Assembly: GCA_964523615.1 (NCBI GenBank)
Contig: CAZFZU010000004.1
Coordinates: forward strand, 9,575-73,574
Source: an uncultured Eubacteriales bacterium
GTDB lineage: Bacteria > Acidobacteriota > Aminicenantia > Aminicenantales > Saccharicenantaceae
Length of the DNA stretch: 64,000 bases
Direction: 5' to 3'
Shown: piece after piece, positions 34,177-60,627 of the stretch
How the letters are laid out: every line of letters begins with the position of its first letter
Numbering within the stretch: position 1 is the stretch's first letter
The notes under the pieces: generated by a model
The model's database searches: none
What the model was told of the DNA's origin: nothing
The model's input: the letters and a program-made list of their open reading frames with translations, nothing else
Position numbers and translations under genes: made by a program

Positions 34177-34267
34177 GGCGTTCTCCCCGCCGGCGGAGGC
34201 GGCCGCCGGCATGCCGGGAATTATAGCGGCCGGGCGGGGAATGTCAATTCTGTGCTAGAATCCGGCC

Positions 34268-41010: not shown

Positions 41011-41018
41011 CCGGGACG

Positions 41019-41024
41019 ATTATA
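41019..41024 (-). promoter_or_regulatory. Candidate -10 box (TATAAT) for the riboswitch-btuB transcript
   Basis: Exact TATAAT ~10 nt upstream of the first conserved riboswitch nucleotides. The -35 region is poor (TAGCCC). Confidence 0.35.
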
Positions 41025-41541
41025 GCAAAAGGCGGCGGGTCGGGCTAGGGGAGACCGCCCCGGCCGGGCATCAGGCCGGAGCGGTCTCGGAGGGGGAATG
41101 GGGTCTATCGGCGATATCGAAAAGGAGGTCTTGGCCGGCCATTCTCGTCTCTCATCCCTATAAACGGACTTCCCCCGCCCCCCGTTGCATGTCTCTCTGT
41201 CACAGGACAAATCGGTTCTGCACCTTTTCCCGATTGTCCCTCTCGAGGCGGGTGAGCGGCAGGGAGCGAATTCTTCGGAGCGACCATCAGCCCCGCTTCG
41301 GAGTGACTCGAAGGAGCGGGGCTGGGGAATATCCTAAGTAAGTGCTTTCTCCCGATATTTCGCAGGATCGGGACTCCGGGTGCTCCGTCCCGATCCTGCC
41401 TGGTCCGCTCACCGGGATTCGCTCCCCGTTCCCCGGGGGGCCGGGGAGCCAGAGGATATCCCCGAGCTAACGCCGTGAGAGACTTCTAGCTCTGGGAGAA
41501 GAACCGAATTTTTTCGAACCCCCGTTCGATGACCAATACGA

Positions 41542-47974: not shown

Positions 47975-48093
47975 GGGGACCTCTCCGCCCGGGATGGGCT
48001 TCCTTATTATATAGGTTCCCCCGGCCGCGGGGAATGGACGGCCGGGGGCGATTCGGGTATCATAGGCGCCATCAAGGAGTTAGTGAGGACGCC

Positions 48094-48492
48094 ATGCCCG
48101 GCTACACGGACCGCGAAGCCAAGGCCGGCCTCGGGACGAAACTGCCGTCCCTGGAGACCTTCGCCAACCAGTTCCCCGACTACGAGATCACCGTCGAGGT
48201 CCCCGAGTTCACTTCGGTCTGCCCCAAGACGGGTCTGCCCGATTTCGGCCGCCTGACCCTGACCTACGCTCCCGTCAAGCGGGTCCTCGAGCTCAAGTCC
48301 CTCAAGGAGTACTTCCTGGCCTACCGGAACCTGGGCATCTTCTACGAGAACGTCGTCAACCGCGTCCTCGAGGACGTCGTGGCCGCCTGCCGGCCGTCGC
48401 GGGCCGCCGTCCGGGGCGAGTTCAATCCCCGCGGCGGGCTGAGCTCGATCGTCGAGGCCCGCTACCCGCGGACCCGGAAGCGGCGGCCCTGA
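48094..48492 (+). CDS. queF: NADPH-dependent 7-cyano-7-deazaguanine (preQ0) reductase, short type
   Basis: E..SVCP.TG.PDF catalytic Cys motif and the LELKSLK.Y QueF motif. Start at ATG 48094. Confidence 0.9.
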   Translation: MPGYTDREAKAGLGTKLPSLETFANQFPDYEITVEVPEFTSVCPKTGLPDFGRLTLTYAPVKRVLELKSLKEYFLAYRNLGIFYENVVNRVLEDVVAACRPSRAAVRGEFNPRGGLSSIVEARYPRTRKRRP

Positions 48493-48546
48493 CCGGGGGC
48501 CGCTTCCCCCCCCGGCACTCCGAACGGACCCTCTCCCCGCGCCCCG

Positions 48547-49497
48547 ATGAACCCTTTCCGCCCCGCGCCGACGGCCAACGGCCCCCGCCTCTGCTGCACC
48601 GACCTGCTCATCGTCCTGGTCGTCGTTCTCTGGGCCGTCAACCTCTCGGTCATCAAGATCGGACTGCGCGTCCTCACGCCCCACGCCTTCAACGCCGTCC
48701 GGCTGGGATTGGCCGCGCTGGCCTACCTGGCGGTCCTGCTGGTCCGCCGGCCGCGGTTCCGGCCCGGGCGCCGCGGCGACGGTTGGAAAGCCGCCGGCCT
48801 CGGCCTGCTCGGCATCACCTTCTACCAGGTCTTCTTCATCCGGGGCGTCGACACGATGAACGCCTCGACGGCCTCCGTGGTCATGGGCACGAGCCCCATC
48901 TTCATCGCCCTGCTGGCCACGGCCGTCGGCGAAGAGCGCGTGACCTGGGCCGGTTGGGCCGGCATCGCCATCTCCTTCGGCGGCTTCCTCCTCGTCCTGT
49001 CGGGCGAGAACGGCGGGCTGGTCTTCACTTGGGAGGCCTGGCGGGGCGCCCTCCTCATCCTGCTCGCCAACGCCTGCTGGGCGGGTTACACGGTGTTCTC
49101 GAAGCCCGTCCTCGACCGCAACGCCGCCTTCGACCTCGCGGCGATCGGGACGGTGGCCGGGACCGCGGTCTACCTGCCGTTCGCCGCCGGCGACCTGGTC
49201 AGGACCGACTGGGCGGCCGTGCCCTGGCAGGGTTGGGCGGCCATCGCCTACGCCGGCCTGGTGGCCATCTTCCTCTGTTTCGTCCTCTGGTACCAGTCGG
49301 TCAAGAAGGTCGGGGCCGCCAAGACCGGCGTCTACGGCAACCTGACCCCCATCCTGGCCATCCTCTTCGCCGGCCGGATCCTGGGCGAGCGCCTCACGGC
49401 GGTCCAGGCCGCCGGCGCGGCCGTCACGCTGGCGGGCGTCTATCTGACGCGGTCCGGCTACCGGTTCTTCGAGCGCCGCGGTCAGCGGATCCCGTAG
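48547..49497 (+). CDS. EamA/DMT-family transporter
   Basis: Ten predicted TM helices in two EamA repeats. The 3' end overlaps the convergent queE by 16 nt. Confidence 0.8.
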   Translation: MNPFRPAPTANGPRLCCTDLLIVLVVVLWAVNLSVIKIGLRVLTPHAFNAVRLGLAALAYLAVLLVRRPRFRPGRRGDGWKAAGLGLLGITFYQVFFIRGVDTMNASTASVVMGTSPIFIALLATAVGEERVTWAGWAGIAISFGGFLLVLSGENGGLVFTWEAWRGALLILLANACWAGYTVFSKPVLDRNAAFDLAAIGTVAGTAVYLPFAAGDLVRTDWAAVPWQGWAAIAYAGLVAIFLCFVLWYQSVKKVGAAKTGVYGNLTPILAILFAGRILGERLTAVQAAGAAVTLAGVYLTRSGYRFFERRGQRIP

Positions 49498-50111
49498 ACC
49501 TTGTGGAGCTGGACCGAGAGGCGGATGCCGCCGAGCCCCGCCAGCGAGGCCCGTTCGAGGAGCGCCGCGGCCTTCCTCAAGCTCCAGCCGGCGTTGGACT
49601 GCGGCTGGAGGAAGACCGGCGTCGCGGCCGGGAAGGCGGCCCGGACCGTCCGGACCGCGTCGAGCGTGAGCGAGCGGCAGACGACGAGCTTGACCTCGCG
49701 GGCCCGCCGGGCGAAGGCGGGGTGGACCGCGTAGTCCGGCGGCTTGGGCGAGACCGTGTGCCAGTCGGCCCGCGGCTCCGGCGGGAAGGTGCCGTTGGTC
49801 TCGACCTGGACGAGGTAGCCCTCGGCGTGGAGGCGGTCGACGAGCGGGCCGACGTCCTGGGCCAGCGGTTCGCCGCCGGTCAGAGCGACCCAGGCCGCGG
49901 GCAGGGGGGCGCCGAGCCGCACGACCTCGGCGACGACGGCTTCGACGGCGAGCTCGCGGCCGCCGCGCCAGGCCGTCTTGGTGTCGCAGAAGCCGCAGCG
50001 GAGGTTGCAGCCGGCCAGGCGGACGAAGACGGTCGGCTCGCCCTGGCGCAGGCCCTCGCCCTGGACCGAGGCGAAGATCTCAGTCGTTTTCAGAGTAGGT
50101 GGCCGACGCAT
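49482..50111 (-). CDS. queE: 7-carboxy-7-deazaguanine synthase (radical SAM)
   Basis: EIFASVQGEG..G.P.VFVRLAGCNLRCGFCDTK. The annotated start overlaps the queD 3' end by 32 nt, so the true start may be slightly downstream. Confidence 0.85.
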   Translation of the reverse strand: MRRPPTLKTTEIFASVQGEGLRQGEPTVFVRLAGCNLRCGFCDTKTAWRGGRELAVEAVVAEVVRLGAPLPAAWVALTGGEPLAQDVGPLVDRLHAEGYLVQVETNGTFPPEPRADWHTVSPKPPDYAVHPAFARRAREVKLVVCRSLTLDAVRTVRAAFPAATPVFLQPQSNAGWSLRKAAALLERASLAGLGGIRLSVQLHKVYGIR

Positions 50112-50427
50112 CCTCGGATTCCCAGACCGTGACGGAGTCGACGGGATAGGTCTTCTTGAGCTCGCCGTAGAGGTGGCGGGCGATGTTCTCCGCGGACGGG
50201 TTGAAGGGGAAGGCCTCGTTGAGCAGGGTGTGATCGGGCAGGAGCGCGGCCAGGTTCCGCTTGATCTCGGTGAAGTCGAAGCCGATGCCCGCGGCGTCGA
50301 GCGTCCGGGCCCGCACGGCCACCTCGACGTGGAAGGTGTGGCCGTGGACCTTTTCGCACTTCCCCTTGTATCCCTCGAGATAGTGGGCGGCCGAGAACTT
50401 GTCCCGGACCTTGAGCGTCCAGCTCAT
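50080..50427 (-). CDS. queD: 6-carboxy-5,6,7,8-tetrahydropterin synthase
   Basis: F.AAH.L..Y.GKCE..HGH.F.VEV motifs. The ATG at 50427 overlaps the queC stop (ATGA). Confidence 0.9.
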   Translation of the reverse strand: MSWTLKVRDKFSAAHYLEGYKGKCEKVHGHTFHVEVAVRARTLDAAGIGFDFTEIKRNLAALLPDHTLLNEAFPFNPSAENIARHLYGELKKTYPVDSVTVWESEDASATYSEND

Positions 50428-51128
50428 CGGTGACCTCTCTTTCGCAGGCGGGCGAGCAGCGGGTCCTCGCGGCCGACGGCCCGCCAGGCCTCGGCCCGGA
50501 AGCGGCAGGACGAGCACGCGCCGCAGGGGCGCTCGCCTCCGGCGTAGCAGGAGACGGAGCGGGCGTAGTCGGCCCCGAGGCGGAGCCCCAGGCGGATGAT
50601 GCCGGGCTTGTCCAGGCCGAGGAGCGGCGCGAGGATGCGGGTCGGCGGGCCGCCGAAGGCCGCTTTCGTCCCGGCCCGGACGGCCCGCTCCATGGCCCGG
50701 ACGAAGGCCCGGGTCGTGTCGGGGTAGTCGGGCGAGTCGGCGACGTGGAAGCCGCAGACGAGGTCGCGGATGCCGCGGGCCTCGGCCCAGGCCGCGGCCA
50801 AGGCCAGGAAGACGCCGTTGCGGAAGGGCACGTATGTCGCCGGCGGCCCGGCCGGCTTGACGGCGCGGCGGCGGATCGGGGCCCGGGGGAGGGCGATCGC
50901 GGCGTCCGTCAGGGCCGAACCGCCTATGGGCCGCAGGTCGACCTCGAGGACGGCGTGGGGCACGCCGAGGCGGCGGGCGGCCCGCCGGGCCAGGGCGATC
51001 TCGACCCGGTGGCGCTGGCCGTAGTCGAACGTCAGCGCCTGGACCCGGTCGTAGCGCGCGAGGGCCCAGGCCAGGGCCGTCGTCGAATCGAGCCCGCCGG
51101 AGAACAGGACCACACAGGATGTCGACAA
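50424..51128 (-). CDS. queC: 7-cyano-7-deazaguanine synthase
   Basis: VVLFSGGLDSTT PP-loop and a C-terminal Cys cluster (C..C..C..C). Start proposed at TTG 51128, 4 nt after GGAGGA. The rest of the 1024-aa track ORF is antisense to plus-strand genes. Confidence 0.9.
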   Translation of the reverse strand: MSTSCVVLFSGGLDSTTALAWALARYDRVQALTFDYGQRHRVEIALARRAARRLGVPHAVLEVDLRPIGGSALTDAAIALPRAPIRRRAVKPAGPPATYVPFRNGVFLALAAAWAEARGIRDLVCGFHVADSPDYPDTTRAFVRAMERAVRAGTKAAFGGPPTRILAPLLGLDKPGIIRLGLRLGADYARSVSCYAGGERPCGACSSCRFRAEAWRAVGREDPLLARLRKRGHR

Positions 51129-51239
51129 GCGATCCTCCCGCCGTTGATGATAATGGACGCGTCGGAGATAAGCAAGCCGGCCGTCCCCGCCGGCGTTTGA
51201 CACCTCGGGGCCCGGATGGTATATCTTGAGATTCCGAAC

Positions 51240-52076
51240 ATGAGCGAAAAGTCCATCGTCGCCGGCATCGGCGGCGTCGTCCGCACCTACGAGCTCATGG
51301 ACCGCGTCCGGACGCGGCAGGACCTGGTCATCCGCGACGACCAGTTCGACCACGAAGCCCTGCTCGACGCCGCCCGCTACGCCGGCCGCCGGGGCATCCG
51401 GCTGAGCCTGCTCGACACCGGGCGGTTCGACCTCGTCCGCCTCGAGGCGCTGGCCGAAGCCGGCAGCCGCGTCCTGACCTCGGACGAGGCCCGTCCGCGG
51501 GCCGGCGAGTGGGAGGTCCTGCTCGAGGCCTGCCGCCGGGGCGGCACCCGGCCGGCCGCCTTCTGGCACGGCCCGCTGCCGGCGGCGGACGCGACCGAGG
51601 GCTTCACCCGTCTGGCCCTGACCGACCTGCTCGGCGGGGGCCTCGACCTCCACGTCTCCGACCGGGTTCACGCCCGCGACCCCGAGGACCTGGCCGGGTT
51701 GGCCGCCGCGGCGAAGAAGGGCCGCGGCTATTTCGTCGTCTACCACGCCGGCACTCTCCCGGCGGAACTGGCGGCGCCCGCCGCCCGTCGGGCCTGGGTC
51801 CACTTCTCGGACCGCGGCGCCGCCGTCGAGGGCTGGGCGGACCGGGCCCTGGCCGTGGCCCGGGCCGCGGCCGCGGCCGGATCGCGGGCCGTCGTCCACG
51901 TCGAGACCGGCCTGACCCTCGAGACCTTCGCCGCGCTCTGGGACGCGGGCGCCGCGCTCGTCGTCCTGACGCCGCCGAGCGACGACCGCTCCCTCCTCCG
52001 GCCGTACGAAGAGAAGGCCGCCCGGCGCAAGGTCCCGGCCCGGGCCTTCTACCTGTCCACGGCTTTCCTGCCGTGA
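51240..52076 (+). CDS. Hypothetical protein with four ~60-aa internal beta/alpha-like repeats
   Basis: Strong GC3 bias and no recognisable family. It contains repeating blocks ending in ..V[LH].[ST][DP]. A candidate TTGACA-N17-TATATC promoter (51197-51225) would leave almost no leader. Confidence 0.55.
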   Translation: MSEKSIVAGIGGVVRTYELMDRVRTRQDLVIRDDQFDHEALLDAARYAGRRGIRLSLLDTGRFDLVRLEALAEAGSRVLTSDEARPRAGEWEVLLEACRRGGTRPAAFWHGPLPAADATEGFTRLALTDLLGGGLDLHVSDRVHARDPEDLAGLAAAAKKGRGYFVVYHAGTLPAELAAPAARRAWVHFSDRGAAVEGWADRALAVARAAAAAGSRAVVHVETGLTLETFAALWDAGAALVVLTPPSDDRSLLRPYEEKAARRKVPARAFYLSTAFLP

Positions 52077-53342: not shown

Positions 53343-53526
53343 AGACCGTCCGGACACGCGCCATGAACTCCCCGTACGCGTCCCGCCTGGAGCCCTGCGC
53401 CGCGGCGGCGGCTTCGCCGCAGAGGGCTCGCCCGATGGGCCAAACTGAAGGCCCCGAACCGGCCCCACTAATGGTGGTTCGGCCGCGCCGCGGTACAAAA
53501 AAAAGCGGTCGGAAACCAGAAAACGC

Positions 53527-53554
53527 TTGACAATCGGTTAGAATGGTCTATAAA
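53527..53554 (+). promoter_or_regulatory. Sigma70-type promoter TTGACA-N16-TATAAA
   Basis: The hexamers sit in a conspicuously AT-rich island, ~70 nt upstream of the first ATP-grasp gene. Confidence 0.5.
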
Positions 53555-53621
53555 TGAAAATGAAAAAATGGAACTCGAGAGAGATCTCCGCGTAAGAGAA
53601 GGCTGAGAGAAGGAACACGAG

Positions 53622-54731
53622 ATGAAGATCGCTTTGGTCTATAGCTCGAAAGCGGGCATGGAGGCGACGCTCGATCGCCGGCCCGACGAGCCGAAGGGCG
53701 AGGAGGACGAGCCTCCACTTCCGCCCGACATGCTCGCCGAGTGCGATTCCGACGAGACGATCGCCGCGGTCGGGCAGGCCCTCCGGGAAAAGCACCAGGT
53801 CGTTTTCGTCGAGTCCGACGACAAGGCCTACGGCCGCCTCAAGCGCCAGCGCCCCCAGCTCGTCTTCAACATCGCCGAGCGCGTCGTCGGCCCCAACCGC
53901 GAGTCCCACATCCCGACGGTCTGCGAGATGCTGGACATCCCCTACACGGGGTCCGATCCGCTGACCCTCGGCATCTGCCTCGACAAGTCGCGGGCCAAGG
54001 AGATCCTGTCCTACCACCGCATCCCTAACCCGGCCTTCTGGATCGTCGAGTCGGCCGCGGCCATCCCGGCCGGCGTGCGCCTGCCGGCCATCGTCAAGCC
54101 GCTGACCGAGGGCTCGAGCAAGGGCATCAAGAACAACTCCCTCGTCCACAGCTTGGGCGAGCTCTACGAGCGGGTCGACGAGGTCGTCGGGACCTACAAG
54201 CAGCCGGTCATCGTCGAGCGCTTCCTCGGGGGGCGCGAGTTCACCGTCGGCGTCCTCGGCAACGAGCCGAACTACGAGGTCCTGCCCATCGTCGAGATCG
54301 ACCACGGCCAGCTGCCGGCCGGGGCGGCGCCCATCTACTCGTACGAGGCCAAGTGGCTCTGGGACACGCGCGAGAAGCCGCTGGACATCTTCAAGTGCCC
54401 GGCCCCCGTCCCGCCGGTCCTGGCGGCCAAGATCGAGAGCCTCGTCGTGCGGACCTGCCGGGTCCTGCGCATCCGGGACTGGGCCCGGATCGACGTCCGG
54501 CTCGACGACAAGGGCGAGCCCAACATCCTCGAGATCAATCCCCTGCCGGGCATCCTGCCCCGGCCCGAGGACAACTCCTGCCTGCCCAAGGCGGCCCGGA
54601 CCGCCGGCTATTCCTATTCGGACCTGATCCACAGAGTGGTCGAGGAGGCCAGCAAGCGCTACGGCCTCCGTCCGACGCGCATCCGGCCCGCGGCGAGCGA
54701 ACGGCCGGCGGTCCTCGCGGATCGTGCATGA
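53622..54731 (+). CDS. ATP-grasp ligase, D-Ala-D-Ala-ligase-like (paralog 1)
   Basis: KIALVY start, E.DS.ETI, NIAE...RE..IP...E.L.IPYTGS, DK...K, PAIVKP..EGSS.GI, REF.VG, and C-terminal E[IV]NPLPG. Confidence 0.85.
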   Translation: MKIALVYSSKAGMEATLDRRPDEPKGEEDEPPLPPDMLAECDSDETIAAVGQALREKHQVVFVESDDKAYGRLKRQRPQLVFNIAERVVGPNRESHIPTVCEMLDIPYTGSDPLTLGICLDKSRAKEILSYHRIPNPAFWIVESAAAIPAGVRLPAIVKPLTEGSSKGIKNNSLVHSLGELYERVDEVVGTYKQPVIVERFLGGREFTVGVLGNEPNYEVLPIVEIDHGQLPAGAAPIYSYEAKWLWDTREKPLDIFKCPAPVPPVLAAKIESLVVRTCRVLRIRDWARIDVRLDDKGEPNILEINPLPGILPRPEDNSCLPKAARTAGYSYSDLIHRVVEEASKRYGLRPTRIRPAASERPAVLADRA

Positions 54732-55762
54732 CCGCTTCCCCCCACATCGCCATCGTCTACAACGCCTACGAACCCCGGCCGACGGCGACGGGCGAGCGTC
54801 TGTCCGAGGAGTCCGTGGCCGAGATGGCCAAGCAGGCCCAGGAGGCCGTCCAGAGCCTGGGCGTGGCGACGACGCTCGTGCCGCTCCAGAAGAGCCTGTT
54901 CAACTTCCTGGGACGGGTCCGCGAGCTCGATCCCGACGGCCTCATCAACCTCTGCGAGGGCTATTACGGCCGGCCGCAGTGGGAGTCCAACGTCGCCGGG
55001 ATCTTCGAGCTCCTCGGGCTGACCTTCACCGGTTCGCCGGCCAAGACGCTGGCCTTCTGCCAGGACAAGTTCAAGGCCAAGGCCGTGCTCAAGGCGGCCG
55101 GGCTGCCGACGGCGCCGGCCCAGCTCATGCTGACGGGAGAAGAGCCGCTCGAGCTGCGGTTCCCCCTCATCGTCAAGCCGAACGCGGAGGACGCCAGCCT
55201 GGGGGTCTATCCCGATTCGGTCGTCCGCGACGAGGAAGCCCTGCGGCGGCAGGTCCGGCGCTGCCTCGAGAACTACAAGCAGCCGGCCCTGGTCGAGGCC
55301 TTCATCGACGGGCGCGAGTTCAACGTGGCCGTCCTGGAGAACGGCGCGGTCCGGGCCCTGCCGGTCTCCGAGATCGATTTCTCGGCCCTGCCCAAGGACA
55401 CGCCGCGCATCCTCGGCTACGACGCCAAGTGGTTCGAGGACCATCCCTTCTACCAGAAGACGCCGCCGGTCTGCCCGGCCCCGATCGACGACGAGCTGCG
55501 TGGGCGGCTCCAGGGCCTGGCCGAGGCGGCCTTCCGGACCCTGGGCTGCCGCGACTACGCCCGGGTCGATTTCCGGATGGACGCCAAGGGCCGGCCGTTC
55601 ATCCTCGAGGTCAATCCCAATCCCGACATCAGCAACAACGCCGGCTACGCCCGGGCCCTGGCCGCGGCCGGCATCGGCTACGCCGCTTTCTGGGGCCTGA
55701 TGATCGACAACGCCATGGCGAGGAGGGCCGCCCATGATCCGGCCGATGGCGCCGCGCGATAA
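54728..55762 (+). CDS. ATP-grasp ligase, D-Ala-D-Ala-ligase-like (paralog 2)
   Basis: The ATG at 54728 overlaps the upstream stop (ATGA). IAIVYNAY, NLCEG, FTGS, DKFKAK, LIVKPN.EDAS.G, REFNVAV, DYARVDFR, ILEVNPNPD. Confidence 0.85.
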   Translation: MTASPHIAIVYNAYEPRPTATGERLSEESVAEMAKQAQEAVQSLGVATTLVPLQKSLFNFLGRVRELDPDGLINLCEGYYGRPQWESNVAGIFELLGLTFTGSPAKTLAFCQDKFKAKAVLKAAGLPTAPAQLMLTGEEPLELRFPLIVKPNAEDASLGVYPDSVVRDEEALRRQVRRCLENYKQPALVEAFIDGREFNVAVLENGAVRALPVSEIDFSALPKDTPRILGYDAKWFEDHPFYQKTPPVCPAPIDDELRGRLQGLAEAAFRTLGCRDYARVDFRMDAKGRPFILEVNPNPDISNNAGYARALAAAGIGYAAFWGLMIDNAMARRAAHDPADGAAR

Positions 55763-56207
55763 GGCCGACGTGCTCGGCCTGGTCCGGGCCACGGGCTTCT
55801 TCACCGAGGCCGAGGTCGGTGTGGCCGAGGAGCTCGTCGACATCTACCTCGGCCAGCCGGACCAGAAGGACTACGGCGTCGTCGTCGTCGAGGGCGAGGG
55901 CGGCGGCGTGGCCGGCTACATGACCTGGGGCCCGACGCCCCTGGCCGAGGGCGCCTACGACCTCTATTGGATGGCCGTGGCGCCGTCCGAGCAGGGGAAG
56001 GGGAGGGGCAAGGAGCTCGTCCGCTGGCTCGAGGACGAGGTCCGGAAGAGGGACGGGCGGGTCATCATCATCGAGACCTCGTCCCAGCCCAAATACCACG
56101 GCACGAGACGGTTCTACATCGATCTCGACTATAAAGAGGTCGCCCGGGTCCCGGATTTCTACCGGGCCGGCGACGATCGCGTCATCTACGCGAAGTATTT
56201 CCGTTAG
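55734..56207 (+). CDS. GNAT-family N-acetyltransferase
   Basis: 157 aa with the acetyl-CoA-binding motif V.PSEQGKGRGKELV. Overlaps the upstream gene by 29 nt. Confidence 0.8.
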   Translation: MIRPMAPRDKADVLGLVRATGFFTEAEVGVAEELVDIYLGQPDQKDYGVVVVEGEGGGVAGYMTWGPTPLAEGAYDLYWMAVAPSEQGKGRGKELVRWLEDEVRKRDGRVIIIETSSQPKYHGTRRFYIDLDYKEVARVPDFYRAGDDRVIYAKYFR

Positions 56208-56217
56208 GAGTTCGGAG

Positions 56218-57330
56218 ATGGACGACTGGCAACGCTTGCTCAAAGGGGCTCTCCGCAAGCCCGAAGAGATCGCGGCGAAATTCGGCCTGGACCTCGAGGA
56301 GGTCCGCCGCATCGCCAAGGTCTTCAAGATCCAGATCACGCCGTATTATGCCGGCCTGATCAAGGAGCGCGGGGACGCCATGTGGCGCCAGATGGTGCCC
56401 GACCCGGCCGAGCTCAAGGCCGACACGGGCGTGGCCGACCCGCTCGAGGAGGACCACGACTCGCCGGTGCCGAGCGTCGTCCACCGCTACCCCGACCGCT
56501 GCCTGTTCCTGGTCTCTCACAGCTGCGCCTCGTACTGCCGCTTCTGCACGCGGAAGCGGAAGGTCGGGGACCCGTCGAAGATCCACCCCCGCTACATCGA
56601 GGACGGGCTGGCCTACATCCGGAGCCACCCGGAGATCCGCGACGTCGTCATCTCGGGCGGCGACCCGCTCATGCTCGGCGACCGCCGGCTCGAGGCCATC
56701 GTCAAGGGCGTCCGGGCCATCCCCCACGTCGAGATCATCCGCATCGGCACGCGGGTGCCGTGCGTCCTGCCGCAGCGGGTCACCGAGAAGCTCGCGGCCA
56801 TGCTCAAGAAGTACCACCCGCTCTACGTCAACGTCCACTTCAACCACCCCGACGAGATCACGCCGGAGTCGTCGCTGGCGCTGGGGCGGCTGGCCGACGC
56901 CGGCATCCCGCTCGGCAACCAGACCGTCCTGCTCAAGGGCGTCAACGACGACCCGCTGGTCATGCGGCGGCTCATGCAGAAGCTGCTGTCGGTGCGGGTC
57001 CGGCCGTACTACATCTACCAGGCCGACTATGTCAGCGGCACGGAGCACCTGCGGACGACGGTCGAGAAGGGGCTCGAGGTCATGGAGAACCTGCGGGGCT
57101 GGACGTCCGGCCTGGCGGTGCCCTACTACTGCATCGACGCGCCCGGGGGCGGCGGCAAGATCCCGGTCCTGCCGAAGTACCTCCAGTCGATCAGCGAGGA
57201 GCAGGTCGTGCTGCGGAACTACGCCGGGGAGCTGTTCGTCTACCCGCAGGTCAAGGGCAAGCCGAAGCGCAAGCCACGCCCGTCCGAGCCCCCCTGCTAC
57301 AGCTTCGACGGCGCCCCCCCCATGCCCTAA
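56218..57330 (+). CDS. kamA: KamA-family radical SAM aminomutase (lysine 2,3-aminomutase-like)
   Basis: CASYCRFCTRKRKVG (CX3CX2C), SGGDPL, VRPYYIYQADYVSG, and IDAPGGGGKIPV with the PLP lysine. Confidence 0.9.
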   Translation: MDDWQRLLKGALRKPEEIAAKFGLDLEEVRRIAKVFKIQITPYYAGLIKERGDAMWRQMVPDPAELKADTGVADPLEEDHDSPVPSVVHRYPDRCLFLVSHSCASYCRFCTRKRKVGDPSKIHPRYIEDGLAYIRSHPEIRDVVISGGDPLMLGDRRLEAIVKGVRAIPHVEIIRIGTRVPCVLPQRVTEKLAAMLKKYHPLYVNVHFNHPDEITPESSLALGRLADAGIPLGNQTVLLKGVNDDPLVMRRLMQKLLSVRVRPYYIYQADYVSGTEHLRTTVEKGLEVMENLRGWTSGLAVPYYCIDAPGGGGKIPVLPKYLQSISEEQVVLRNYAGELFVYPQVKGKPKRKPRPSEPPCYSFDGAPPMP

Positions 57331-57333
57331 GAC

Positions 57334-57368
57334 GGGGTCAAACCTACTTTTTATCACTTTCCGACAAT
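57334..57368. repeat. Left terminal inverted repeat (35 bp)
   Basis: Exact reverse complement of 58409-58443. It extends to 41 bp (57328-57368) with one mismatch. An adjacent 6-bp hairpin CCGACA-ATAA-TGTCGG lies at 57361-57376. Confidence 0.9.
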
Positions 57369-58336
57369 AATGTCGGATCGACGGGTTCGGTCGGTTTCTT
57401 CAAGCCGATAGAAAGGACCTCGAAAGCGCGCTTGAGCGCTAAATTGTGCTCGAGTTCCTTCAGGATCCTCTTTTTCGCTCCAGAAACCCCGGACACACTC
57501 ATTTTAAGAAAGGACCCGATCTCTTCCAGAGAATAGTGCCCTATCCGTTTGCAGATCAAGATCGTCATCTCTTTGGTATGCCGGTTGAGCGTACCCAATT
57601 CTTTTTCTGTTGCTTCGAGGATCTCGAGCATCTCCGGCCGCTTCATGTAATAGCGGAGCTGCGGTCTCTCCCGATCTCTCGAGAGGGCTTGCTCCTGGAG
57701 GTGGTCAGCGCTTATCCGATCGATGAACGATGGCGTGCCGAGGATCCCAGATCTTCTCGATGCCTCGAAATCGGGATGGGGTTCGAGGCCTATCCCCGCG
57801 AGAACGAATTTCTCGAATAGTTCCCGGTCTTCCGTGCGCGTGCGATCATGACGTCCCAATATAACGGACGAGCATAGCCAGGGTTGTTTTTGCTTCGCGC
57901 CGACATATTCCTGATGGCTGGACCAGTGGTACTGTTCTGGCCTGCTCACGAGACCTGCCCGAACCGGATTCAAATGGATGTATCTCACGAGTTCCCAGGC
58001 ATAGGTCTCGGCCTCGACGAGTATGGACTTGAAACGGCCTTGAAAAAGGTGCCCACAACGGTCGTTCTTCTTGTTGAAATAGACCGTATAGCGCGTGTTG
58101 ATCGCATGCAGAGCTTTCGATAGCGCGCCATAGAGATCCTCGATCAAAAGATGATAGTGATTCGGCATCAGGCAATAGGCGTGGAATCGGATGCCGAAGT
58201 CCAGGGCCGCTTCTCCGAGGATCTTTAGGAAGAAAAAGCGGTCATCATCGGAAAGAAAGATCTCCTGTTTCCGATTCCCTCTGGAAAAGACATGGAAGAA
58301 GGCGCCTGGGTAATCGATCCGCAACTGGCGAGACAT
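57344..58336 (-). CDS. REP-associated/IS200-like tyrosine (HUH) transposase with C-terminal DnaA-C-like HTH domain
   Basis: FFHVFSRGN, HUH motif MPNHYHLLI, GHLFQGRFKS, catalytic-Tyr region RYIHLNPVRAGL, and a C-terminal HTH-like tail. The last 8 codons and the stop lie inside the left IR. Confidence 0.85.
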   Translation of the reverse strand: MSRQLRIDYPGAFFHVFSRGNRKQEIFLSDDDRFFFLKILGEAALDFGIRFHAYCLMPNHYHLLIEDLYGALSKALHAINTRYTVYFNKKNDRCGHLFQGRFKSILVEAETYAWELVRYIHLNPVRAGLVSRPEQYHWSSHQEYVGAKQKQPWLCSSVILGRHDRTRTEDRELFEKFVLAGIGLEPHPDFEASRRSGILGTPSFIDRISADHLQEQALSRDRERPQLRYYMKRPEMLEILEATEKELGTLNRHTKEMTILICKRIGHYSLEEIGSFLKMSVSGVSGAKKRILKELEHNLALKRAFEVLSIGLKKPTEPVDPTLLSESDKK

Positions 58337-58408
58337 GGGTTCTGATTCACTAGACGCACGCGGGCCGAACTTATTCTCATGGGGCAGGACGGAAGGAATG
58401 GCTACAAA

Positions 58409-58443
58409 ATTGTCGGAAAGTGATAAAAAGTAGGTTTGACCCC
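58409..58443. repeat. Right terminal inverted repeat (35 bp)
   Basis: Exact reverse complement of 57334-57368. It extends to 58449 with one mismatch. Confidence 0.9.
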
Positions 58444-58446
58444 TTC

Positions 58447-60627
58447 TTATCTGAGGCTCGAGAGGTAGGGGCTGAGGCCGGGGGAGTTGACAAGGGACAG
58501 GACCTCGTCTCTCGGGACGCCGCGCTTCTGACGCAGCGATTCGAGGATGCGGATGATCGAGAAGGCCACCTCGGCCGTCTGCCCCGCCCCGGCCGGCTTG
58601 TCGCGCAGATAGGCGATGGCGTCGTACAGCACGGCGTTGGCCTCGCCGTACGTCACCGGCTCCCTCCGCCCGTGCGCCTTCACCCAAGCCGCCGTCCCCA
58701 ACGCGTCGTTGACGTGCGACTGGATGAGGAACGTGGCCCGCCCGACGAGCTTGAGGTTGCTCGGGCTGACGTTGGTCATGGTGTTGCCGACGACCTTGCC
58801 CAGCTTGGCCATGACCGCCGTCGAGTGGGCGTTGAGGAGCATCTTGGCCGCCATCTGCTGCCGGACGCCGAAAGCGTCGCCCTCGGCCGCCACCGCCACG
58901 GGCACCACGACGAGCCGCCCGTAGCGGCCCTTCCAGCCGCTCCTGACCCGCTCGACGAGCTCCAGGACCGCCTTTCCCGTCCGGTCCGTGACGAGCACGA
59001 CGGCCGCGTCGGCCCCGCCTTCGCCGGCCAGGTCCAGGACCTTGGCGAACGACGATCCCGCCCGCCCGATCTCGCCTTCCTCCGGCGTCAGCGCCACGAG
59101 CACGACGAGGTCGCCCTTCTTCGGCCCCCGCTTCACGGTATTGGCCGCCCCGAGCGAGAAATCGTAGAGCTCCGCCTGCTCGTCTCCCGCTTTCTTCAGG
59201 CTCTCCAGGGCCGCCCGCCTCAGATAGGGGTCCTCGACCTCGGTCTCGAACGGCCCCCGGTACTTCTCCGCCCCCAGTCCCCGGAACGGCCGTCCCAAGA
59301 ACGCCCGCCACGCCTCCTCGGCCGTCCCCGCCTTCGTCCAGACCTGGATCCAGCACTTCCGCGCCGGCTCCCTGACCGTGTCGAGCGGGAACAGCCGGAA
59401 GGTCGGGCTGCGCTCGGTGCTGTCGATGAAGACCGTGATAAGCCCCCGTTCGGCGTAATACGTGGAGAACCGTCCCCCCGCGTATGCCGCCGCTTCGATG
59501 TCCGTGAGCGCCGCGAGCTCCGGCAGGGCCGCCTTGACCCCGTCGAGCGTCTCGCCGAAGCGCCTCAGCCGCGCCGCCACTCCCGCCGCCCCCGTCCCGC
59601 CTGCCGCGAAACCCAGCCGTTCCATGTCCCGCGGCCCGAGCGCCTTCGCCAGCGCCCGCTCCACGGCCGTCTCGACGACCGAGGCCACGACGAAGGTCTC
59701 GATCGTCGTCGCCTGCATCCGCGTCGACCCGGTGATGGCCTGCGGCCCGGTCGTCAGGTTGATCTTGGTGAGGCCCGGCTCGTCGATGACCCTCCGGCTG
59801 CGCTCGAACGGCAGCAGCCGGTCGTCCGGGTTGTTATAGACGAAGAACAGGCTCTCGCGGCTCTCCGCCGGATCGTACCCGGGATCGGCCTTCCACGCGT
59901 CCAGGGCCGCCAGCGCGGTGCCGATGACCGACGACGTCTCGCCGCCCTCGGTGACGCAGATGACGACGTCGCCCTTCCGGACGCCCCGGTCCTCGAGCTG
60001 GAGCTTCCCGATGAGCAGCAGGTCCTCGAAGCCCTCGAGCGAGCTGATGAGGGCCCGGTCGGCCCCGGTCATCTCGCCGACGAGGGCGTCCTCGATCCCC
60101 GTCCCGACCCGCCCTTCGACCTTGCGCCACACCCGCCCGTCCGCCTTGACCCGGCGCCAGAACGGCCGCCAGAACGCGCTCTCCATCTGCTTGGCCAGCC
60201 GGCCCGTCGCGCCGCATCCGTAGACGTAGATCTTCCGCCCGCTCCGGATGGCCGTCTCGACCGCCCGGGCCGCCCGCTCGAGCTCGCCGGGCGCCGCCGC
60301 GAGCTCGTCGACCTTGGCCCGGACGTCCTCGTCGACCGCGGACAGCATCTTCAGTCCGGCCAGCGTATCCTCGCGGACGCGTTCGCCGAGCGGCCAGGTC
60401 TTCGGATGGCGCTGCTCCGTGAGCAGGGTGTGGAGCTGGAACTGCGTCTTCGTCAGGACGTAGTCGACCGATTCCGCCGCCGGCTCGATCCCCAGGAGCT
60501 TGAGCAGTCCCGTCCCCGCCCCCGCCTCCGGCCCGGCCGGGGCTTGCGGGCCCTGGCCGCAGAACGCCAGCGCCATCGCCACCGTCGCCAGCGCCCCCGC
60601 CGCGACCGCGCCCGCCCGCCGCGCCAT
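58447..60627 (-). CDS. GCKR/MurQ-like double-SIS-domain protein with N-terminal signal-like extension
   Basis: LLTEQRHP.T, IYVYGCGATGRLA, VTEGGETSSVIG, ITGSTRMQATT and the C-terminal AAKMLLNAHSTAVMAKLGKVVGNTMTNVSPSNLKLVGRA match the MurQ / glucokinase-regulator family. The first ~30 aa are hydrophobic (AVAAGALATVAMALAFC). Confidence 0.7.
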   Translation of the reverse strand: MARRAGAVAAGALATVAMALAFCGQGPQAPAGPEAGAGTGLLKLLGIEPAAESVDYVLTKTQFQLHTLLTEQRHPKTWPLGERVREDTLAGLKMLSAVDEDVRAKVDELAAAPGELERAARAVETAIRSGRKIYVYGCGATGRLAKQMESAFWRPFWRRVKADGRVWRKVEGRVGTGIEDALVGEMTGADRALISSLEGFEDLLLIGKLQLEDRGVRKGDVVICVTEGGETSSVIGTALAALDAWKADPGYDPAESRESLFFVYNNPDDRLLPFERSRRVIDEPGLTKINLTTGPQAITGSTRMQATTIETFVVASVVETAVERALAKALGPRDMERLGFAAGGTGAAGVAARLRRFGETLDGVKAALPELAALTDIEAAAYAGGRFSTYYAERGLITVFIDSTERSPTFRLFPLDTVREPARKCWIQVWTKAGTAEEAWRAFLGRPFRGLGAEKYRGPFETEVEDPYLRRAALESLKKAGDEQAELYDFSLGAANTVKRGPKKGDLVVLVALTPEEGEIGRAGSSFAKVLDLAGEGGADAAVVLVTDRTGKAVLELVERVRSGWKGRYGRLVVVPVAVAAEGDAFGVRQQMAAKMLLNAHSTAVMAKLGKVVGNTMTNVSPSNLKLVGRATFLIQSHVNDALGTAAWVKAHGRREPVTYGEANAVLYDAIAYLRDKPAGAGQTAEVAFSIIRILESLRQKRGVPRDEVLSLVNSPGLSPYLSSLR

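What the first reader, a model, noticed from the sequence alone, without database searches (positions are those of the whole stretch)
53527..57330. Promoter-driven ATP-grasp x2 / GNAT / lysine-2,3-aminomutase operon: candidate pathway to a beta-lysine-derived product
Four tightly packed genes follow a TTGACA-N16-TATAAA promoter in an AT-rich island. The packing is an ATGA overlap at 54728-54731, a 29-nt overlap at 55734-55762 and a 10-nt gap before 56218. The genes are two divergent D-Ala-D-Ala-ligase-like ATP-grasp enzymes, a GNAT and a KamA-family radical-SAM aminomutase.

The aminomutase keeps CASYCRFC and the PLP lysine (GGGGK). It also keeps both acidic positions (YQAD.., ..IDAPGGGGK) that, as I recall from Clostridium lysine 2,3-aminomutase, bind the epsilon-amino group and are replaced in glutamate 2,3-aminomutase. 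That argues the substrate is lysine-like and the product beta-lysine.

KamA + GNAT is the ablA/ablB logic (N-epsilon-acetyl-beta-lysine osmolyte of methanogens; yodP-kamA in Bacillus). I know of no characterised beta-lysine pathway that adds two ATP-grasp ligases. Possible products are:
- an acetylated beta-lysine di- or tripeptide, or an oligo-beta-lysine, acting as a compatible solute or antibiotic-like molecule;
- ATP-grasp-mediated beta-lysylation of a protein or cell-wall target.

A NhaD-type permease immediately upstream would fit an osmoadaptation role.
Basis: partly seen in the sequence, partly recalled or inferred. Interest (0 to 1): 0.75.

Follow-up and report, generated by a model that had tools for sequence, protein, structure and literature searches.

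The report
Conserved beta-lysine ligase gene cluster
Four tightly packed genes (a lysine 2,3-aminomutase, two paired D-Ala-D-Ala-ligase-like enzymes and an acetyltransferase) form an uncharacterised module that recurs, sometimes as fused proteins, across many bacterial phyla and in archaea, and it most likely makes an unknown beta-lysine-containing small molecule.

Summary
A unique TTGACA-N16-TATAAA promoter (53527-53554) sits in a 40% GC island. It precedes four co-directional genes: AG1 (53622-54731), AG2 (54728-55762), a GNAT (55734-56207) and a KamA-family aminomutase (56218-57330).

The window comes from an Aminicenantes bacterium. All four genes are syntenic in 62 of the 68 related loci that are long enough to hold the whole cluster. 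These loci span Aminicenantes, KSB1, Calditrichia, Kryptonia, Ignavibacteriales, Bacteroidota, Verrucomicrobiota and other Acidobacteriota. The same components, in other gene orders, occur in Myxococcota, Desulfovibrio, Nitrososphaerales and Thermoplasmatota.

Natural fusions link the parts: KamA-AG1, AG1-AG2 and AG2-GNAT.

- KamA keeps the lysine-binding residues but misses the AblA, EpmB and glutamate-aminomutase cut-offs.
- Both ligases have the Ddl fold and keep every ATP, Mg and catalytic residue, but they miss the Ddl cut-offs and have altered substrate pockets.
- The GNAT is not AblB. Its orthologue is PDB 2R7H, whose function is unknown.

I found no paper that describes the system. The best reading is a beta-lysine-derived, amide-linked, usually N-acetylated small molecule. 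Its identity and role are unknown, and an osmolyte role is unproven.

The parts
53495..53510 (+). Conserved A-rich block (ACAAAAAAAAGCGGTC) just upstream of the -35 hexamer; possibly an UP-like element
   Evidence: Nearly invariant in 14 aligned Aminicenantes upstream regions while the flanks diverge. Sequence read. The function is inferred.
53527..53532 (+). -35 hexamer TTGACA
   Evidence: Invariant in alignment A2. Present upstream of AG1 in 68 of 80 loci. The full promoter pattern is unique in the window, with 0.00 matches expected by shuffling.
53549..53554 (+). -10 hexamer TATAAA, 16-nt spacer
   Evidence: Relatives carry TATAAA or TATATA at the same spacing.
53568..53606 (+). 12-codon upstream ORF (MELERDLRVREG*) in the leader; its stop lies 15 nt before the AG1 ATG, next to the AG1 ribosome-binding site
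   Evidence: It sits at the place where at least 24 other Aminicenantes loci have a conserved uORF, M-[IVL]-T-x-x-G-T-[YF]-x-x-L-S, with third-codon-position variation. The window copy lacks that motif, so its function here is doubtful.
53622..54731 (+). AG1: Ddl-fold ATP-grasp ligase, 369 aa
   Evidence: PF07478 at 117 bits. The best NCBIfam Ddl model gives 172.8 bits against a cut-off of 243. The AF2 model has pLDDT 93.7, and its top 50 PDB fold matches are all Ddl, with TM 0.75-0.84 on the target. All ATP, Mg and catalytic residues are kept in 80 of 80 family members; Y216 is W. This is the paralogue found fused to KamA.
54728..55762 (+). AG2: paralogous Ddl-fold ATP-grasp ligase, 344 aa
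   Evidence: PF07478 at 109 bits. It is 33% identical to AG1. Catalytic residues are kept in 73 of 73 members, but the positions of Ddl S150, G276, S281 and L282 are A, D, A and G. The family profile hits only Ddl/VanA strongly in the PDB. This is the paralogue found fused to a GNAT and to AG1.
55734..56207 (+). GNAT N-acyltransferase, 157 aa
   Evidence: PF00583 and PF13508; the acetyl-CoA motif QGKGRG is present. The family profile matches PDB 2R7H at E = 1.6e-48. It does not match AblB TIGR03827.
56218..57330 (+). KamA-family radical-SAM/PLP aminomutase, 370 aa; predicted lysine 2,3-aminomutase
   Evidence: TIGR00238 at 294 bits, above its cut-off of 199. AblA 464 against 525; glutamate 2,3-aminomutase 420 against 650; EpmB 228 against 369. 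It scores 376 bits against 2A5H, with the CxxxCxxC motif, R134, D293, D330 and K337 aligned. D270, D307 and K314 are kept in 69, 70 and 70 of 70 cluster-linked homologues.

Best explanation
The four genes are one transcription unit that encodes a conserved biosynthetic module for a beta-lysine-derived, amide-linked small molecule.

Proposed steps:
1. KamA converts L-lysine to beta-lysine. This is inferred from family membership and from conserved lysine-binding residues.
2. AG1 takes beta-lysine directly as one of its two substrates and forms a first amide bond through an acyl-phosphate, as Ddl does. AG1 is the ligase that nature repeatedly fuses to KamA, and it keeps a Ddl-like acceptor pocket.
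3. AG2 forms a second amide bond on that product. AG2 is its obligate paralogue, is sometimes fused to AG1 or to a GNAT, and probably pairs with AG1 the way Ddl subunits pair in a homodimer. Its acceptor pocket is remodelled.
4. The GNAT N-acetylates a remaining free amine. This step is frequent but not universal. In some lineages it is accompanied by a GNAT-deacetylase fusion that could remove or move the acetyl group.

The product would be a soluble cytoplasmic pseudo-di/tripeptide.

Shown: gene structure, promoter conservation, synteny, fusions, intact catalytic residues and non-membership in the named families. Inferred: the substrates, the order of steps, the hetero-oligomer, the product and its role. 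A role as compatible solute, stress metabolite or nitrogen-rich metabolite is only one possibility.
For: Synteny:
- All four genes are present in 62 of the 68 loci long enough to show them, across at least 7 bacterial phylum-level groups.
- The same set, rearranged, occurs in Myxococcota, Desulfovibrionaceae, Nitrososphaerales and Thermoplasmatota (which lacks the GNAT).

Fusions:
- KamA-AG1 (P0133, P0187), AG-KamA (P0217), AG1-AG2 (P0141) and AG2-GNAT (L082).
- AG1/AG2 orthology holds in distant loci.

Enzyme features:
- KamA keeps R134, D293, D330 and K337 of 2A5H.
- Both ligases keep K97, K144, E180, E187, K215, R255, D257, E270 and N272 (DdlB numbering) in 100% of members, so both should be active.
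- The fold is Ddl, a family that ligates small molecules.

Conservation and regulation:
- KamA and AG1 are as conserved as, or more conserved than, housekeeping neighbours. Median identity in the middle-distance loci is 77% and 68%, against 79% for dCMP deaminase and 59% for QueE.
- Regulation is dedicated. Aminicenantes have a conserved sigma-70-type promoter. KSB1/Calditrichia and Desulfovibrio have sigma-54 -24/-12 elements next to an enhancer-binding protein gene.
- There is no match to known defence systems.
Against: - There are no biochemical data for any member, and product identity cannot be derived from sequence.
- Some Aminicenantes loci (L024, L026, L028, L029) and an Acidobacteriota locus (L072) have AG1-AG2-GNAT with no adjacent KamA. 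The ligases may therefore not strictly need beta-lysine, or KamA may lie elsewhere in those genomes.
- The GNAT is missing in L088 and replaced by a different acyltransferase in L089, so acetylation is not core.
- The KamA-ATP-grasp fusion proteins are known from only one or two metagenomic sequences each and could in principle be assembly or gene-calling artefacts. The AG1-AG2 fusions have several independent members.
- Many hosts come from non-saline peat, soil and groundwater, which does not favour an osmolyte role.
- The N-terminal substrate-site equivalence to Ddl E15 could not be established by sequence.
Confidence: 0.55

Rival explanations
1. The module modifies a macromolecule rather than making a free metabolite. 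The ATP-grasp ligases would attach beta-lysine, and then a second residue, to a protein carboxylate or amine in the manner of RimK, LysX, TTL or EF-P modification. The GNAT would cap the adduct.
For: - ATP-grasp enzymes of other clades do modify proteins (established knowledge: RimK, LysX, TTL).
- The nearest named families for the GNAT are RimI-type, matched by 25 of 25 members, though weakly.
- The accessory GNAT-HDAC fusion resembles protein acetylation/deacetylation enzymes.
- Conservation is at housekeeping level.
Against: - Both ligases belong to the Ddl clade by sequence and fold. No RimK, LysX, TTL or MdnC structure matches at E < 1e-5 or 1e-6.
- No conserved small carrier or target gene lies in the variable flanks. 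The one adjacent Zn-ribbon protein (L089) has no acidic C-terminus.
- KamA scores below the EpmB cut-off.
- Presence in Nitrososphaerales and Thermoplasmatota rules out murein or EF-P as a universal target.
Confidence: 0.15
2. The two ligases build an oligomer or polymer: an oligo-beta-lysine, or a cyanophycin-like two-monomer polyamide used as a nitrogen reserve or polycation. The GNAT would cap the chain.
For: - Two different ligases could alternate in chain extension, as the two active sites of cyanophycin synthetase do (established knowledge).
- Sigma-54/NtrC-type control in several lineages is typical of nitrogen-related functions.
- A related AG-AG fusion lies next to an S58 (DmpA/BapA-type) peptidase.
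Against: - No primer-binding, membrane or export component is conserved.
- Ddl-fold enzymes are not known to be processive.
- The S58-linked fusion is not a clear AG1/AG2 orthologue pair.
- A cytoplasmic polycation would be toxic without export.
Confidence: 0.1
3. [quoted passage not shown]
For: - KamA's best-scoring model is AblA, at 464 bits.
- A GNAT is adjacent.
- Public annotations call AG1 'D-alanine--D-alanine ligase'.
Against: - The AblA cut-off (525) is not reached.
- The GNAT does not match AblB TIGR03827; only 1 of 25 relatives does, and only at 5e-4. It is 157 aa.
- The ligases are physically fused to KamA, to each other and to a GNAT in other organisms, so they are not bystanders.
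- The Ddl model cut-offs are missed by 70-100 bits and pocket residues differ.
- The pair occurs in archaea that lack murein.
Confidence: 0.05
4. The aminomutase serves lysine fermentation or catabolism, as kamA does in Clostridium and Bacillus.
For: KamA-family enzymes start lysine fermentation (established knowledge), and the closest solved structure is the Clostridium enzyme.
Against: - No kamDE, kdd, kce or other downstream catabolic genes appear in any of about 90 loci.
- The invariant partners are ATP-consuming ligases.
- D. alaskensis G20 is not believed to catabolise lysine (PMC4045070). The orthologous cluster was found in contigs that encode the 2R7H protein; their assignment to G20 rests on my memory.
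Confidence: 0.03

Closest known systems
AblA/AblB (N-epsilon-acetyl-beta-lysine synthesis in methanogens; yodP-kamA in Bacillus)
   Same: A KamA-family lysine 2,3-aminomutase is encoded next to a GNAT, and beta-lysine is the presumed intermediate. AblA is the best-scoring named model for the aminomutase.
   Different: - The aminomutase falls below the AblA equivalog cut-off (464 against 525).
- The GNAT belongs to a different family (the 2R7H family, about 160 aa) and does not match TIGR03827.
- Two ATP-grasp ligases are invariant partners and are fused to KamA and to GNAT elsewhere.
- No salt link is shown.
D-Ala-D-Ala / D-Ala-D-Lac ligases (Ddl, VanA)
   Same: The three-domain fold is the same over the whole length (TM 0.75-0.84). 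Every ATP, Mg and catalytic residue is kept. The expected chemistry is the same: an acyl-phosphate is formed and then attacked by an amine.
   Different: - Identity is only 25-33%.
- All NCBIfam Ddl cut-offs are missed.
- Y216 is W in both paralogues.
- AG2 changes S150, G276, S281 and L282 to A, D, A and G.
- The N-terminal region carries an insertion and does not align by sequence.
- The two always occur as an AG1+AG2 pair.
- They are present in archaea.
PylB/PylC of pyrrolysine biosynthesis
   Same: The logic is the same: a radical-SAM enzyme rearranges lysine, and a Ddl-like ATP-grasp ligase joins the rearranged amino acid to another amine. This rests on established knowledge and was not tested here.
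   Different: - PylB is not a KamA/PLP aminomutase.
- There is no PylD.
- PylC did not appear among sequence matches at the thresholds used.
- Here there are two ligases and an acetyltransferase.
N-acetylated peptide solutes made by a GNAT plus ATP-grasp ligases (NAGGN via Ngg/AsnO; NAAG via NAT8L + RIMKLA/B)
   Same: An acetyltransferase combined with ATP-grasp ligation gives a small N-acetyl di- or tripeptide. NAGGN is an osmolyte (PMC1224877).
   Different: Those ligases are RimK- or cyanophycin-synthetase-like, not Ddl-like. No aminomutase or beta-amino acid is involved.
Microviridin-type graspetide clusters (MdnA precursor, two ATP-grasp ligases MdnB/MdnC, GNAT MdnD)
   Same: The gene logic is two ATP-grasp ligases plus a GNAT. 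Many Aminicenantes loci also have a short conserved ORF just upstream.
   Different: - The ligases here are of the Ddl clade, with no match to graspetide ligases.
- The upstream peptide has no conserved acidic or lysine residue to cross-link; position 9 is E or V.
- The upstream peptide is absent outside Aminicenantes, whereas the enzymes are not.
PDB 2R7H, 'putative D-alanine N-acetyltransferase of GNAT family'
   Same: It is an orthologue of the cluster's GNAT (profile E = 1.6e-48). Its gene lies in the same KamA-AG1-AG2-GNAT cluster.
   Different: It is a structural-genomics entry with no demonstrated function. The name appears to be a guess from the neighbouring 'Ddl' genes.
EpmB/EpmA beta-lysylation of EF-P
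   Same: A KamA-family aminomutase supplies beta-lysine for an amide-forming step.
   Different: The score against EpmB is 228 bits with a cut-off of 369. The partners are ATP-grasp ligases, not the LysRS-like EpmA. The cluster is also found in archaea.

Membership tests
KamA family radical-SAM protein (TIGR00238) | Score at or above the curated cut-off; CxxxCxxC cluster motif; PLP-binding lysine | tested here: met
   The score is 294.5 bits against a cut-off of 199.2. CASYCRFC and GGGGK align to C125/C129/C132 and K337 of 2A5H.
Lysine 2,3-aminomutase (substrate specificity) | Acidic residues that bind the lysine epsilon-amino group (D293 and D330 of 2A5H) and R134 for the carboxylate | tested here: met
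   D270, D307 and R112 align to these residues. D270 and D307 are conserved in 69 and 70 of 70 cluster-linked homologues. The roles of the residues are taken from the published 2A5H structure, as I recall it.
AblA equivalog (TIGR03820) | Score at or above the equivalog cut-off of 525.4 | tested here: not met
   464.4 bits.
Glutamate 2,3-aminomutase (TIGR04368), arginine 2,3-aminomutase (TIGR04468) and EpmB (TIGR03821) | Score at or above the curated cut-offs (650, 600 and 369.3) | tested here: not met
   420.2, 342.4 and 228.2 bits.
AblB beta-lysine N-acetyltransferase (TIGR03827) | Match to the family model | tested here: not met
   The window GNAT has no hit. Only 1 of 25 orthologues reaches E = 5e-4.
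GNAT superfamily | Pfam Acetyltransf_1/_7 above the gathering score; acetyl-CoA motif Q/R-x-x-G-x-G/A | tested here: met
   PF00583 scores 37.0 against 20.7 and PF13508 scores 37.1 against 27. QGKGRG is present, and its G90 and G92 are invariant in the family.
D-alanine--D-alanine ligase (NF002378 / TIGR01205) | Score at or above the subfamily cut-offs (243 and 245.65) | tested here: not met
   AG1 scores 172.8 and 141.4 bits; AG2 scores 143.7 and 128.6 bits.
D-alanine--D-alanine ligase | Substrate-site residues Y216, S150, S281 and L282 (DdlB numbering) | tested here: not met
   Y216 is W in 100% of both families. AG2 has A, A and G at the positions of S150, S281 and L282. AG1 keeps S150 and S281 but has C at L282.
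ATP-grasp ligase, Ddl-like fold (catalytically competent) | ATP-binding, Mg-binding and catalytic residues K97, K144, E180, E187, K215, R255, D257, E270 and N272; three-domain Ddl fold | tested here: met
   These residues are kept in 99-100% of 80 AG1 and 73 AG2 sequences. The AG1 model has pLDDT 93.7, and its top 50 fold matches are all Ddl. The AG2 profile's best PDB matches are Ddl and VanA.
RimK / LysX / graspetide (MdnB/C) / cyanophycin-synthetase ATP-grasp clades | Significant match to these families or to their solved structures | tested here: not met
   There is no Pfam RimK hit for AG1 or AG2. None of these appear among the PDB sequence matches at E <= 1e-5 or 1e-6.
Known anti-phage defence systems (PADLOC) | Match to any PADLOC model | tested here: not met
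   No hits for the four proteins or for orf286.
Compatible-solute pathway | Salt-induced expression, and accumulation of the product under osmotic stress | not testable with these tools
   The evidence is only circumstantial. A permease is adjacent in the nearest relatives and Na+/H+ exchangers lie near L082. Many hosts come from non-saline habitats.

The most novel reading that the evidence does not exclude
KamA + AG1 + AG2 (with or without the GNAT) is an ancient module shared by both prokaryotic domains. It makes a previously unrecognised class of beta-lysine-containing pseudopeptide metabolite, assembled by a hetero-oligomeric pair of Ddl-fold ligases. In Aminicenantes its expression is additionally governed by a conserved leader peptide (M-I-T-x-x-G-T-Y/F-x-x-L-S) that may sense the pathway's substrate or product.
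Probability: 0.45. Interest if true: 0.85.

Novelty: new variant of a known kind. Interest (0 to 1): 0.7.

Why it matters
If the reading is right, a widespread beta-amino-acid metabolite has gone unnoticed because its ligases are auto-annotated as 'D-alanine--D-alanine ligase'. AG1 relatives were found at 593 or more places in a collection holding one genome per species, spanning many bacterial phyla and two archaeal phyla.

Identifying the product would:
- give a function to a large Ddl-like subfamily (1,036 clusters at 50% identity with E <= 1e-30);
- give a function to a solved structure of unknown role (2R7H);
- extend beta-lysine biology beyond acetyl-beta-lysine, EF-P and antibiotics;
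- correct a systematic mis-annotation that could mislead cell-wall and vancomycin-resistance surveys.

The question is directly testable, because the cluster occurs in cultured Desulfovibrio species. A barcoded transposon library exists for D. alaskensis G20 (PMC4045070). That G20 is the organism carrying the 2R7H-type cluster rests on my memory.

Tried and rejected
Literature:
- Only three open papers contain both 'aminomutase' and 'ATP-grasp', and none concerns this cluster.
- The Iyer et al. 2009 amidoligase survey (PMC3268129), which might mention it, is not held.
- The DvH sigma-54 regulome paper and the G20 library paper do not mention these genes.

Searches that found nothing:
- Rfam: no riboswitch or other RNA family in the leader.
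- PADLOC: no defence-system match.
- orf286 (51216-52076): nothing in Pfam, NCBIfam, PADLOC or the PDB. It is linked only within Aminicenantes and lies upstream of the promoter, so I did not count it as part of the module.

Modelling:
- The first AF2 model of AG1, built from a shallow alignment, was poor (pLDDT 62) and was discarded. A 119-sequence alignment gave pLDDT 93.7.

Ideas considered and rejected:
- A LysW-like carrier protein: no conserved small ORF with an acidic C-terminus was found.
- A graspetide/RiPP reading of the upstream peptide: it has no conserved acidic or lysine residues and is confined to one lineage.
- The permease as part of the system: it is linked only in the closest relatives.
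- Lysine fermentation: no downstream catabolic genes in any locus.

No cultured host was found among the closest AG1 relatives. Cultured hosts appeared only through the GNAT/2R7H route.

Full report
**What is in the window**

ORF listing and direct reading confirm four co-directional genes:
- AG1, 53622-54731 (369 aa)
- AG2, 54728-55762 (344 aa)
- a GNAT, 55734-56207 (157 aa)
- a KamA-family protein, 56218-57330 (370 aa)

They are joined by an ATGA overlap, a 29-nt overlap and a 10-nt gap.

Upstream, TTGACA-N16-TATAAA lies at 53527-53554. It is the only exact match to that pattern in the 64 kb, where shuffles expect 0.00. It sits in a stretch where GC drops to 0.40, against about 0.70 around it. 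The generic promoter scanner missed it only because it demands T at the last -10 position.

Pfam assigns PF07478 (Ddl C-terminal domain) to AG1 and AG2. It assigns PF00583/PF13508 to the GNAT and PF04055 + PF12544 to KamA. The upstream permease is CitMHS_2 (PF16980), and I could not confirm 'NhaD-type'. Homologue names place the window in Candidatus Aminicenantes, Acidobacteriota.

**The promoter is real**

In an alignment of 14 Aminicenantes upstream regions, TTGACA is invariant. The -10 box (TATAAA or TATATA), the 16-nt spacing and an upstream block (ACAAAAAAAAGYGGTC) are conserved while the surrounding sequence diverges. A TTGACA..TATA box precedes AG1 in 68 of 80 related loci.

KSB1/Calditrichia-type loci lack it. 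About 130 nt upstream of AG1 they instead have TGGCAY-N5-TTGT, a sigma-54 -24/-12 element, with a histidine kinase and an NtrC-type activator immediately upstream.

In Desulfovibrio mangrovi the cluster follows a sigma-54 activator gene. It has TGGCAT-N5-TTGC plus palindromic GCGGAACA..TGTTCCGC sites.

The module therefore has dedicated, lineage-specific transcriptional control.

**Synteny and fusions**

A scan of one genome per species found at least 593 AG1 relatives, of which the best 80 loci were kept. Of the 68 loci long enough to hold the cluster, 62 carry AG1-AG2-GNAT-KamA in that order. They come from Aminicenantes, KSB1, Calditrichia, Kryptonia, Ignavibacteriales, Bacteroidota, Verrucomicrobiota and other Acidobacteriota.

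The exceptions are four Aminicenantes loci and one Acidobacteriota locus without an adjacent KamA, and one locus with AG1-KamA only.

An exhaustive profile-free search found 1,036 clusters at 50% identity with E <= 1e-30. Many are 600-790 aa long. Pfam shows these to be fusions:
- KamA-ATP-grasp: P0133, P0187
- ATP-grasp-KamA: P0217
- ATP-grasp-ATP-grasp: P0125, P0128, P0141, P0145

Their contexts are telling:

| Locus | Source | Arrangement |
|---|---|---|
| L082 | metagenome contig | [KamA-AG1][AG2-GNAT] |
| L087 | NCBI MAG contig (GCA_936418525.1) | [KamA-AG1] AG2 GNAT |
| L085 | Myxococcota | KamA [AG1-AG2] GNAT |
| L086 | Nitrososphaerales | AG2 divergent, then KamA AG1 GNAT |
| L088 | Thermoplasmatota | KamA AG1 AG2 |
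| L089, L090 | uncultured bacterium; unassigned contig | AG1 AG2 KamA |

BLAST shows that the module fused to KamA is AG1-like and the one fused to the GNAT is AG2-like. The AG1/AG2 pair is orthologous in all these lineages.

The KamA fusions are each known from only one or two sequences. The AG1-AG2 fusions have several independent members.

Accessory genes recur. A GNAT-histone-deacetylase-family fusion of 585-596 aa follows the cluster in KSB1 and in D. mangrovi, and the two copies are 60% identical. A third, weakly RimK-like ATP-grasp occurs in L047 and L066.

**The enzymes**

*KamA*
- It passes the KamA family model (294 bits, cut-off 199).
- It fails every equivalog: AblA 464 against 525, glutamate 2,3-aminomutase 420 against 650, arginine 2,3-aminomutase 342 against 600, and EpmB 228 against 369.
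- Against Clostridium lysine 2,3-aminomutase (2A5H) it scores 376 bits. The Fe-S cysteines, R134, D293, D330 and K337 are all aligned.
- D293, D330 and K337 equivalents are kept in 69, 70 and 70 of 70 cluster-linked homologues, archaeal ones included. The single exception (Q at D293) is the AG-KamA fusion that sits next to an aminotransferase.
- Lysine is therefore the likely substrate.

*AG1 and AG2*
- They are 33% identical and score 149 bits against each other. That is closer than either is to any solved Ddl (about 90-100 bits).
- They miss the Ddl subfamily cut-offs by 70-100 bits.
- A deep-alignment AF2 model of AG1 (pLDDT 93.7) has only Ddl structures among its top 50 PDB neighbours, aligned over the full length.
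- An AG2 family profile finds Ddl and VanA (up to 135 bits). It then finds an L-amino-acid ligase (61 bits), then biotin carboxylase, GAR synthetase and CPS.
- No RimK, LysX, graspetide or cyanophycin ligase appears.
- In 80 AG1 and 73 AG2 sequences, all ATP, Mg and catalytic positions of DdlB are 99-100% conserved, so both should be active.
- Y216 is W in both. AG1 keeps S150, G276 and S281, which form the Ddl acceptor site. AG2 has A, D, A, and G at the position of L282. In a wider AG2 alignment that includes Desulfovibrio and archaea, the D is no longer invariant.

*GNAT*
- It has the acetyl-CoA motif and is not AblB.
- Its family profile hits PDB 2R7H, 'putative D-alanine N-acetyltransferase', at E = 1.6e-48.
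- The 2R7H protein (P0427) is encoded in a cluster of sigma-54 activator, KamA, AG1, AG2 and GNAT.
- Orthologues exist in cultured Desulfovibrio psychrotolerans and D. mangrovi.
- From memory, 2R7H comes from D. alaskensis G20. I could not verify this with the tools.

**How it most likely works**

Fusions, order-independent co-occurrence and intact active sites argue for one pathway:
1. KamA converts lysine to beta-lysine.
2. AG1 forms a first amide bond. I propose that it takes beta-lysine directly, because it is the paralogue fused to KamA.
3. AG2 forms a second amide bond. Its acceptor pocket is altered.
4. The GNAT caps a free amine with an acetyl group. It is the partner fused to AG2. This step is frequent but dispensable, because L088 lacks the GNAT and L089 has a PlsC-type acyltransferase instead.

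The Ddl fold and the absence of any conserved target or carrier gene favour a free small molecule. Presence in archaea excludes murein or EF-P as a general target.

KamA and AG1 are as conserved as housekeeping neighbours. That points to core physiology rather than a variable antibiotic.

The physiological role is open. The osmolyte idea has only weak support: a permease linked in the nearest relatives alone, Na+/H+ exchangers near one locus, and marine or saline Desulfovibrio hosts (this last point from my own knowledge). Many hosts live in peat, soil and groundwater.

Rivals, with my confidence in each:
- protein modification, 0.15
- an oligomer or polymer, 0.10
- a plain abl pathway or true Ddl enzymes, 0.05
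- lysine catabolism, 0.03

**Comparison with what is known**

The closest analogies are:
- ablAB, which shares the KamA + GNAT pairing but has a different GNAT family and no ligases;
- Ddl and VanA, which share the fold and chemistry, though membership is not met;
- PylB/PylC, a lysine-rearranging radical-SAM enzyme plus a Ddl-like ligase;
- NAGGN and NAAG synthesis, which pair a GNAT with ATP-grasp ligases to give N-acetyl peptides;
- microviridin clusters, which have two ATP-grasp ligases plus a GNAT but belong to a different ligase clade.

Ten full-text searches found no description of this module. Only three open papers mention 'aminomutase' and 'ATP-grasp' together, and all are unrelated. 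The Iyer et al. 2009 survey could not be read, so prior in-silico mention cannot be excluded. Public annotations are 'D-alanine--D-alanine ligase (family protein)' or 'ATP-grasp domain-containing protein'.

**An extra finding in the leader**

At least 24 Aminicenantes loci carry a short ORF that starts 52-57 nt upstream of AG1. It encodes M-[IVL]-T-x-x-G-T-[YF]-x-x-L-S, sometimes extended so that its stop overlaps the AG1 start.

Across 23 unique sequences, the mean entropy at codon positions 1, 2 and 3 is 0.62, 0.54 and 1.43 bits. Three codons were partly fixed by my search pattern, but the unconstrained codons show the same wobble signature. Selection therefore acts on the peptide.

The window has a 12-codon ORF at the same place (53568-53606, MELERDLRVREG*) but without the motif.

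I read it as a lineage-specific regulatory leader peptide. It is not a ligase substrate, for two reasons. It has no conserved acidic or lysine residue. The enzymes also occur without it in all other phyla.

**Verdict**

This is a real, widely conserved, uncharacterised module. I rate it a new variant of known beta-lysine and ATP-grasp/GNAT pathway logic. The product is unknown, and there is a clear experimental route through cultured Desulfovibrio. Interest: 0.7.

Noticed in passing
window 53568-53606; L006, L007, L017-L031, L034-L038, L041, L044, L046, L050 (52-57 nt upstream of AG1): A conserved upstream small ORF encodes M-[IVL]-T-x-x-G-T-[YF]-x-x-L-S in at least 24 Aminicenantes species. 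Its third-codon-position variation shows selection on the peptide. The window has a 12-codon ORF at the same position but with an unrelated peptide (MELERDLRVREG). It may be a regulatory leader peptide for the operon.
   Followed up: partly
window 57328-58449: A 1.1-kb insertion lies directly after the KamA stop codon. It carries a Y1/IS200-like transposase gene (PF01797) on the minus strand, at about 53% GC in a 70% GC genome, flanked by 46-nt inverted repeats (57328-57373 and 58404-58449, 93% complementary). The arms contain the stop codons of KamA and of the convergent 726-aa SIS-domain gene.
   Followed up: partly
L069-L071, L077, L080 (about 130 nt upstream of AG1); L093:4294-4571: In KSB1/Calditrichia-type loci and in Desulfovibrio mangrovi, a sigma-54 -24/-12 element precedes the cluster in place of the sigma-70-type promoter. 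An enhancer-binding-protein gene lies directly upstream. The palindromic upstream sites differ between lineages: TTCTCA-N3-TGAGAA against GCGGAACA..TGTTCCGC.
   Followed up: partly
L071:10720-12510, L080:10721-12511, L093:8629-10386: A GNAT fused to a histone-deacetylase-family amidohydrolase (585-596 aa) follows the cluster in KSB1 and in D. mangrovi. The copies from L093 (D. mangrovi) and L071 (KSB1) are 60% identical across phyla; L080 was not compared. It is a likely accessory enzyme for acetyl removal or transfer.
   Followed up: partly
L083:6001-9432: A related ATP-grasp-ATP-grasp fusion (724 aa) lies next to a Peptidase_S58 (DmpA/BapA-type aminopeptidase) gene, with no KamA or GNAT. This may be a sister system that handles another unusual peptide.
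   Followed up: no
L081:3852-8088: This variant locus encodes an unknown 305-aa protein, a class I/II aminotransferase and an ATP-grasp-KamA fusion. The aminomutase part has Q at the D293 position, which suggests a substrate other than lysine.
   Followed up: no
L023 (same MAG as L002): A second copy of the cluster, apparently degraded, with partial AG2, GNAT and KamA matches at 60-74% identity. It is either a pseudogenised duplicate or a binning artefact.
   Followed up: no
window 51216-52076: orf286 matches nothing in Pfam, NCBIfam, PADLOC or the PDB, and its sequence looks internally repetitive. A homologue lies directly upstream of the cluster's promoter in many Aminicenantes, even where the permease is absent. 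Its function is unknown.
   Followed up: partly
window 40859-41030 (-): A cobalamin riboswitch (RF00174, 86.5 bits), the only Rfam match in the window.
   Followed up: no
window 48034-51200: A group of 7-deazaguanine (queuosine precursor) genes lies upstream. By eye these are QueF-, QueE-, QueD- and QueC-like; the QueE-like ORF matches Radical_SAM. QueE- and QueD-like matches recur in many Aminicenantes loci; their position relative to the cluster there was not checked.
   Followed up: no
window 3291-3318 (+) and 34220-34247 (-): Two further near-consensus promoters (TTGACA-N16-TATAAT) in this GC-rich window, found while testing whether the operon promoter was unique.
   Followed up: no
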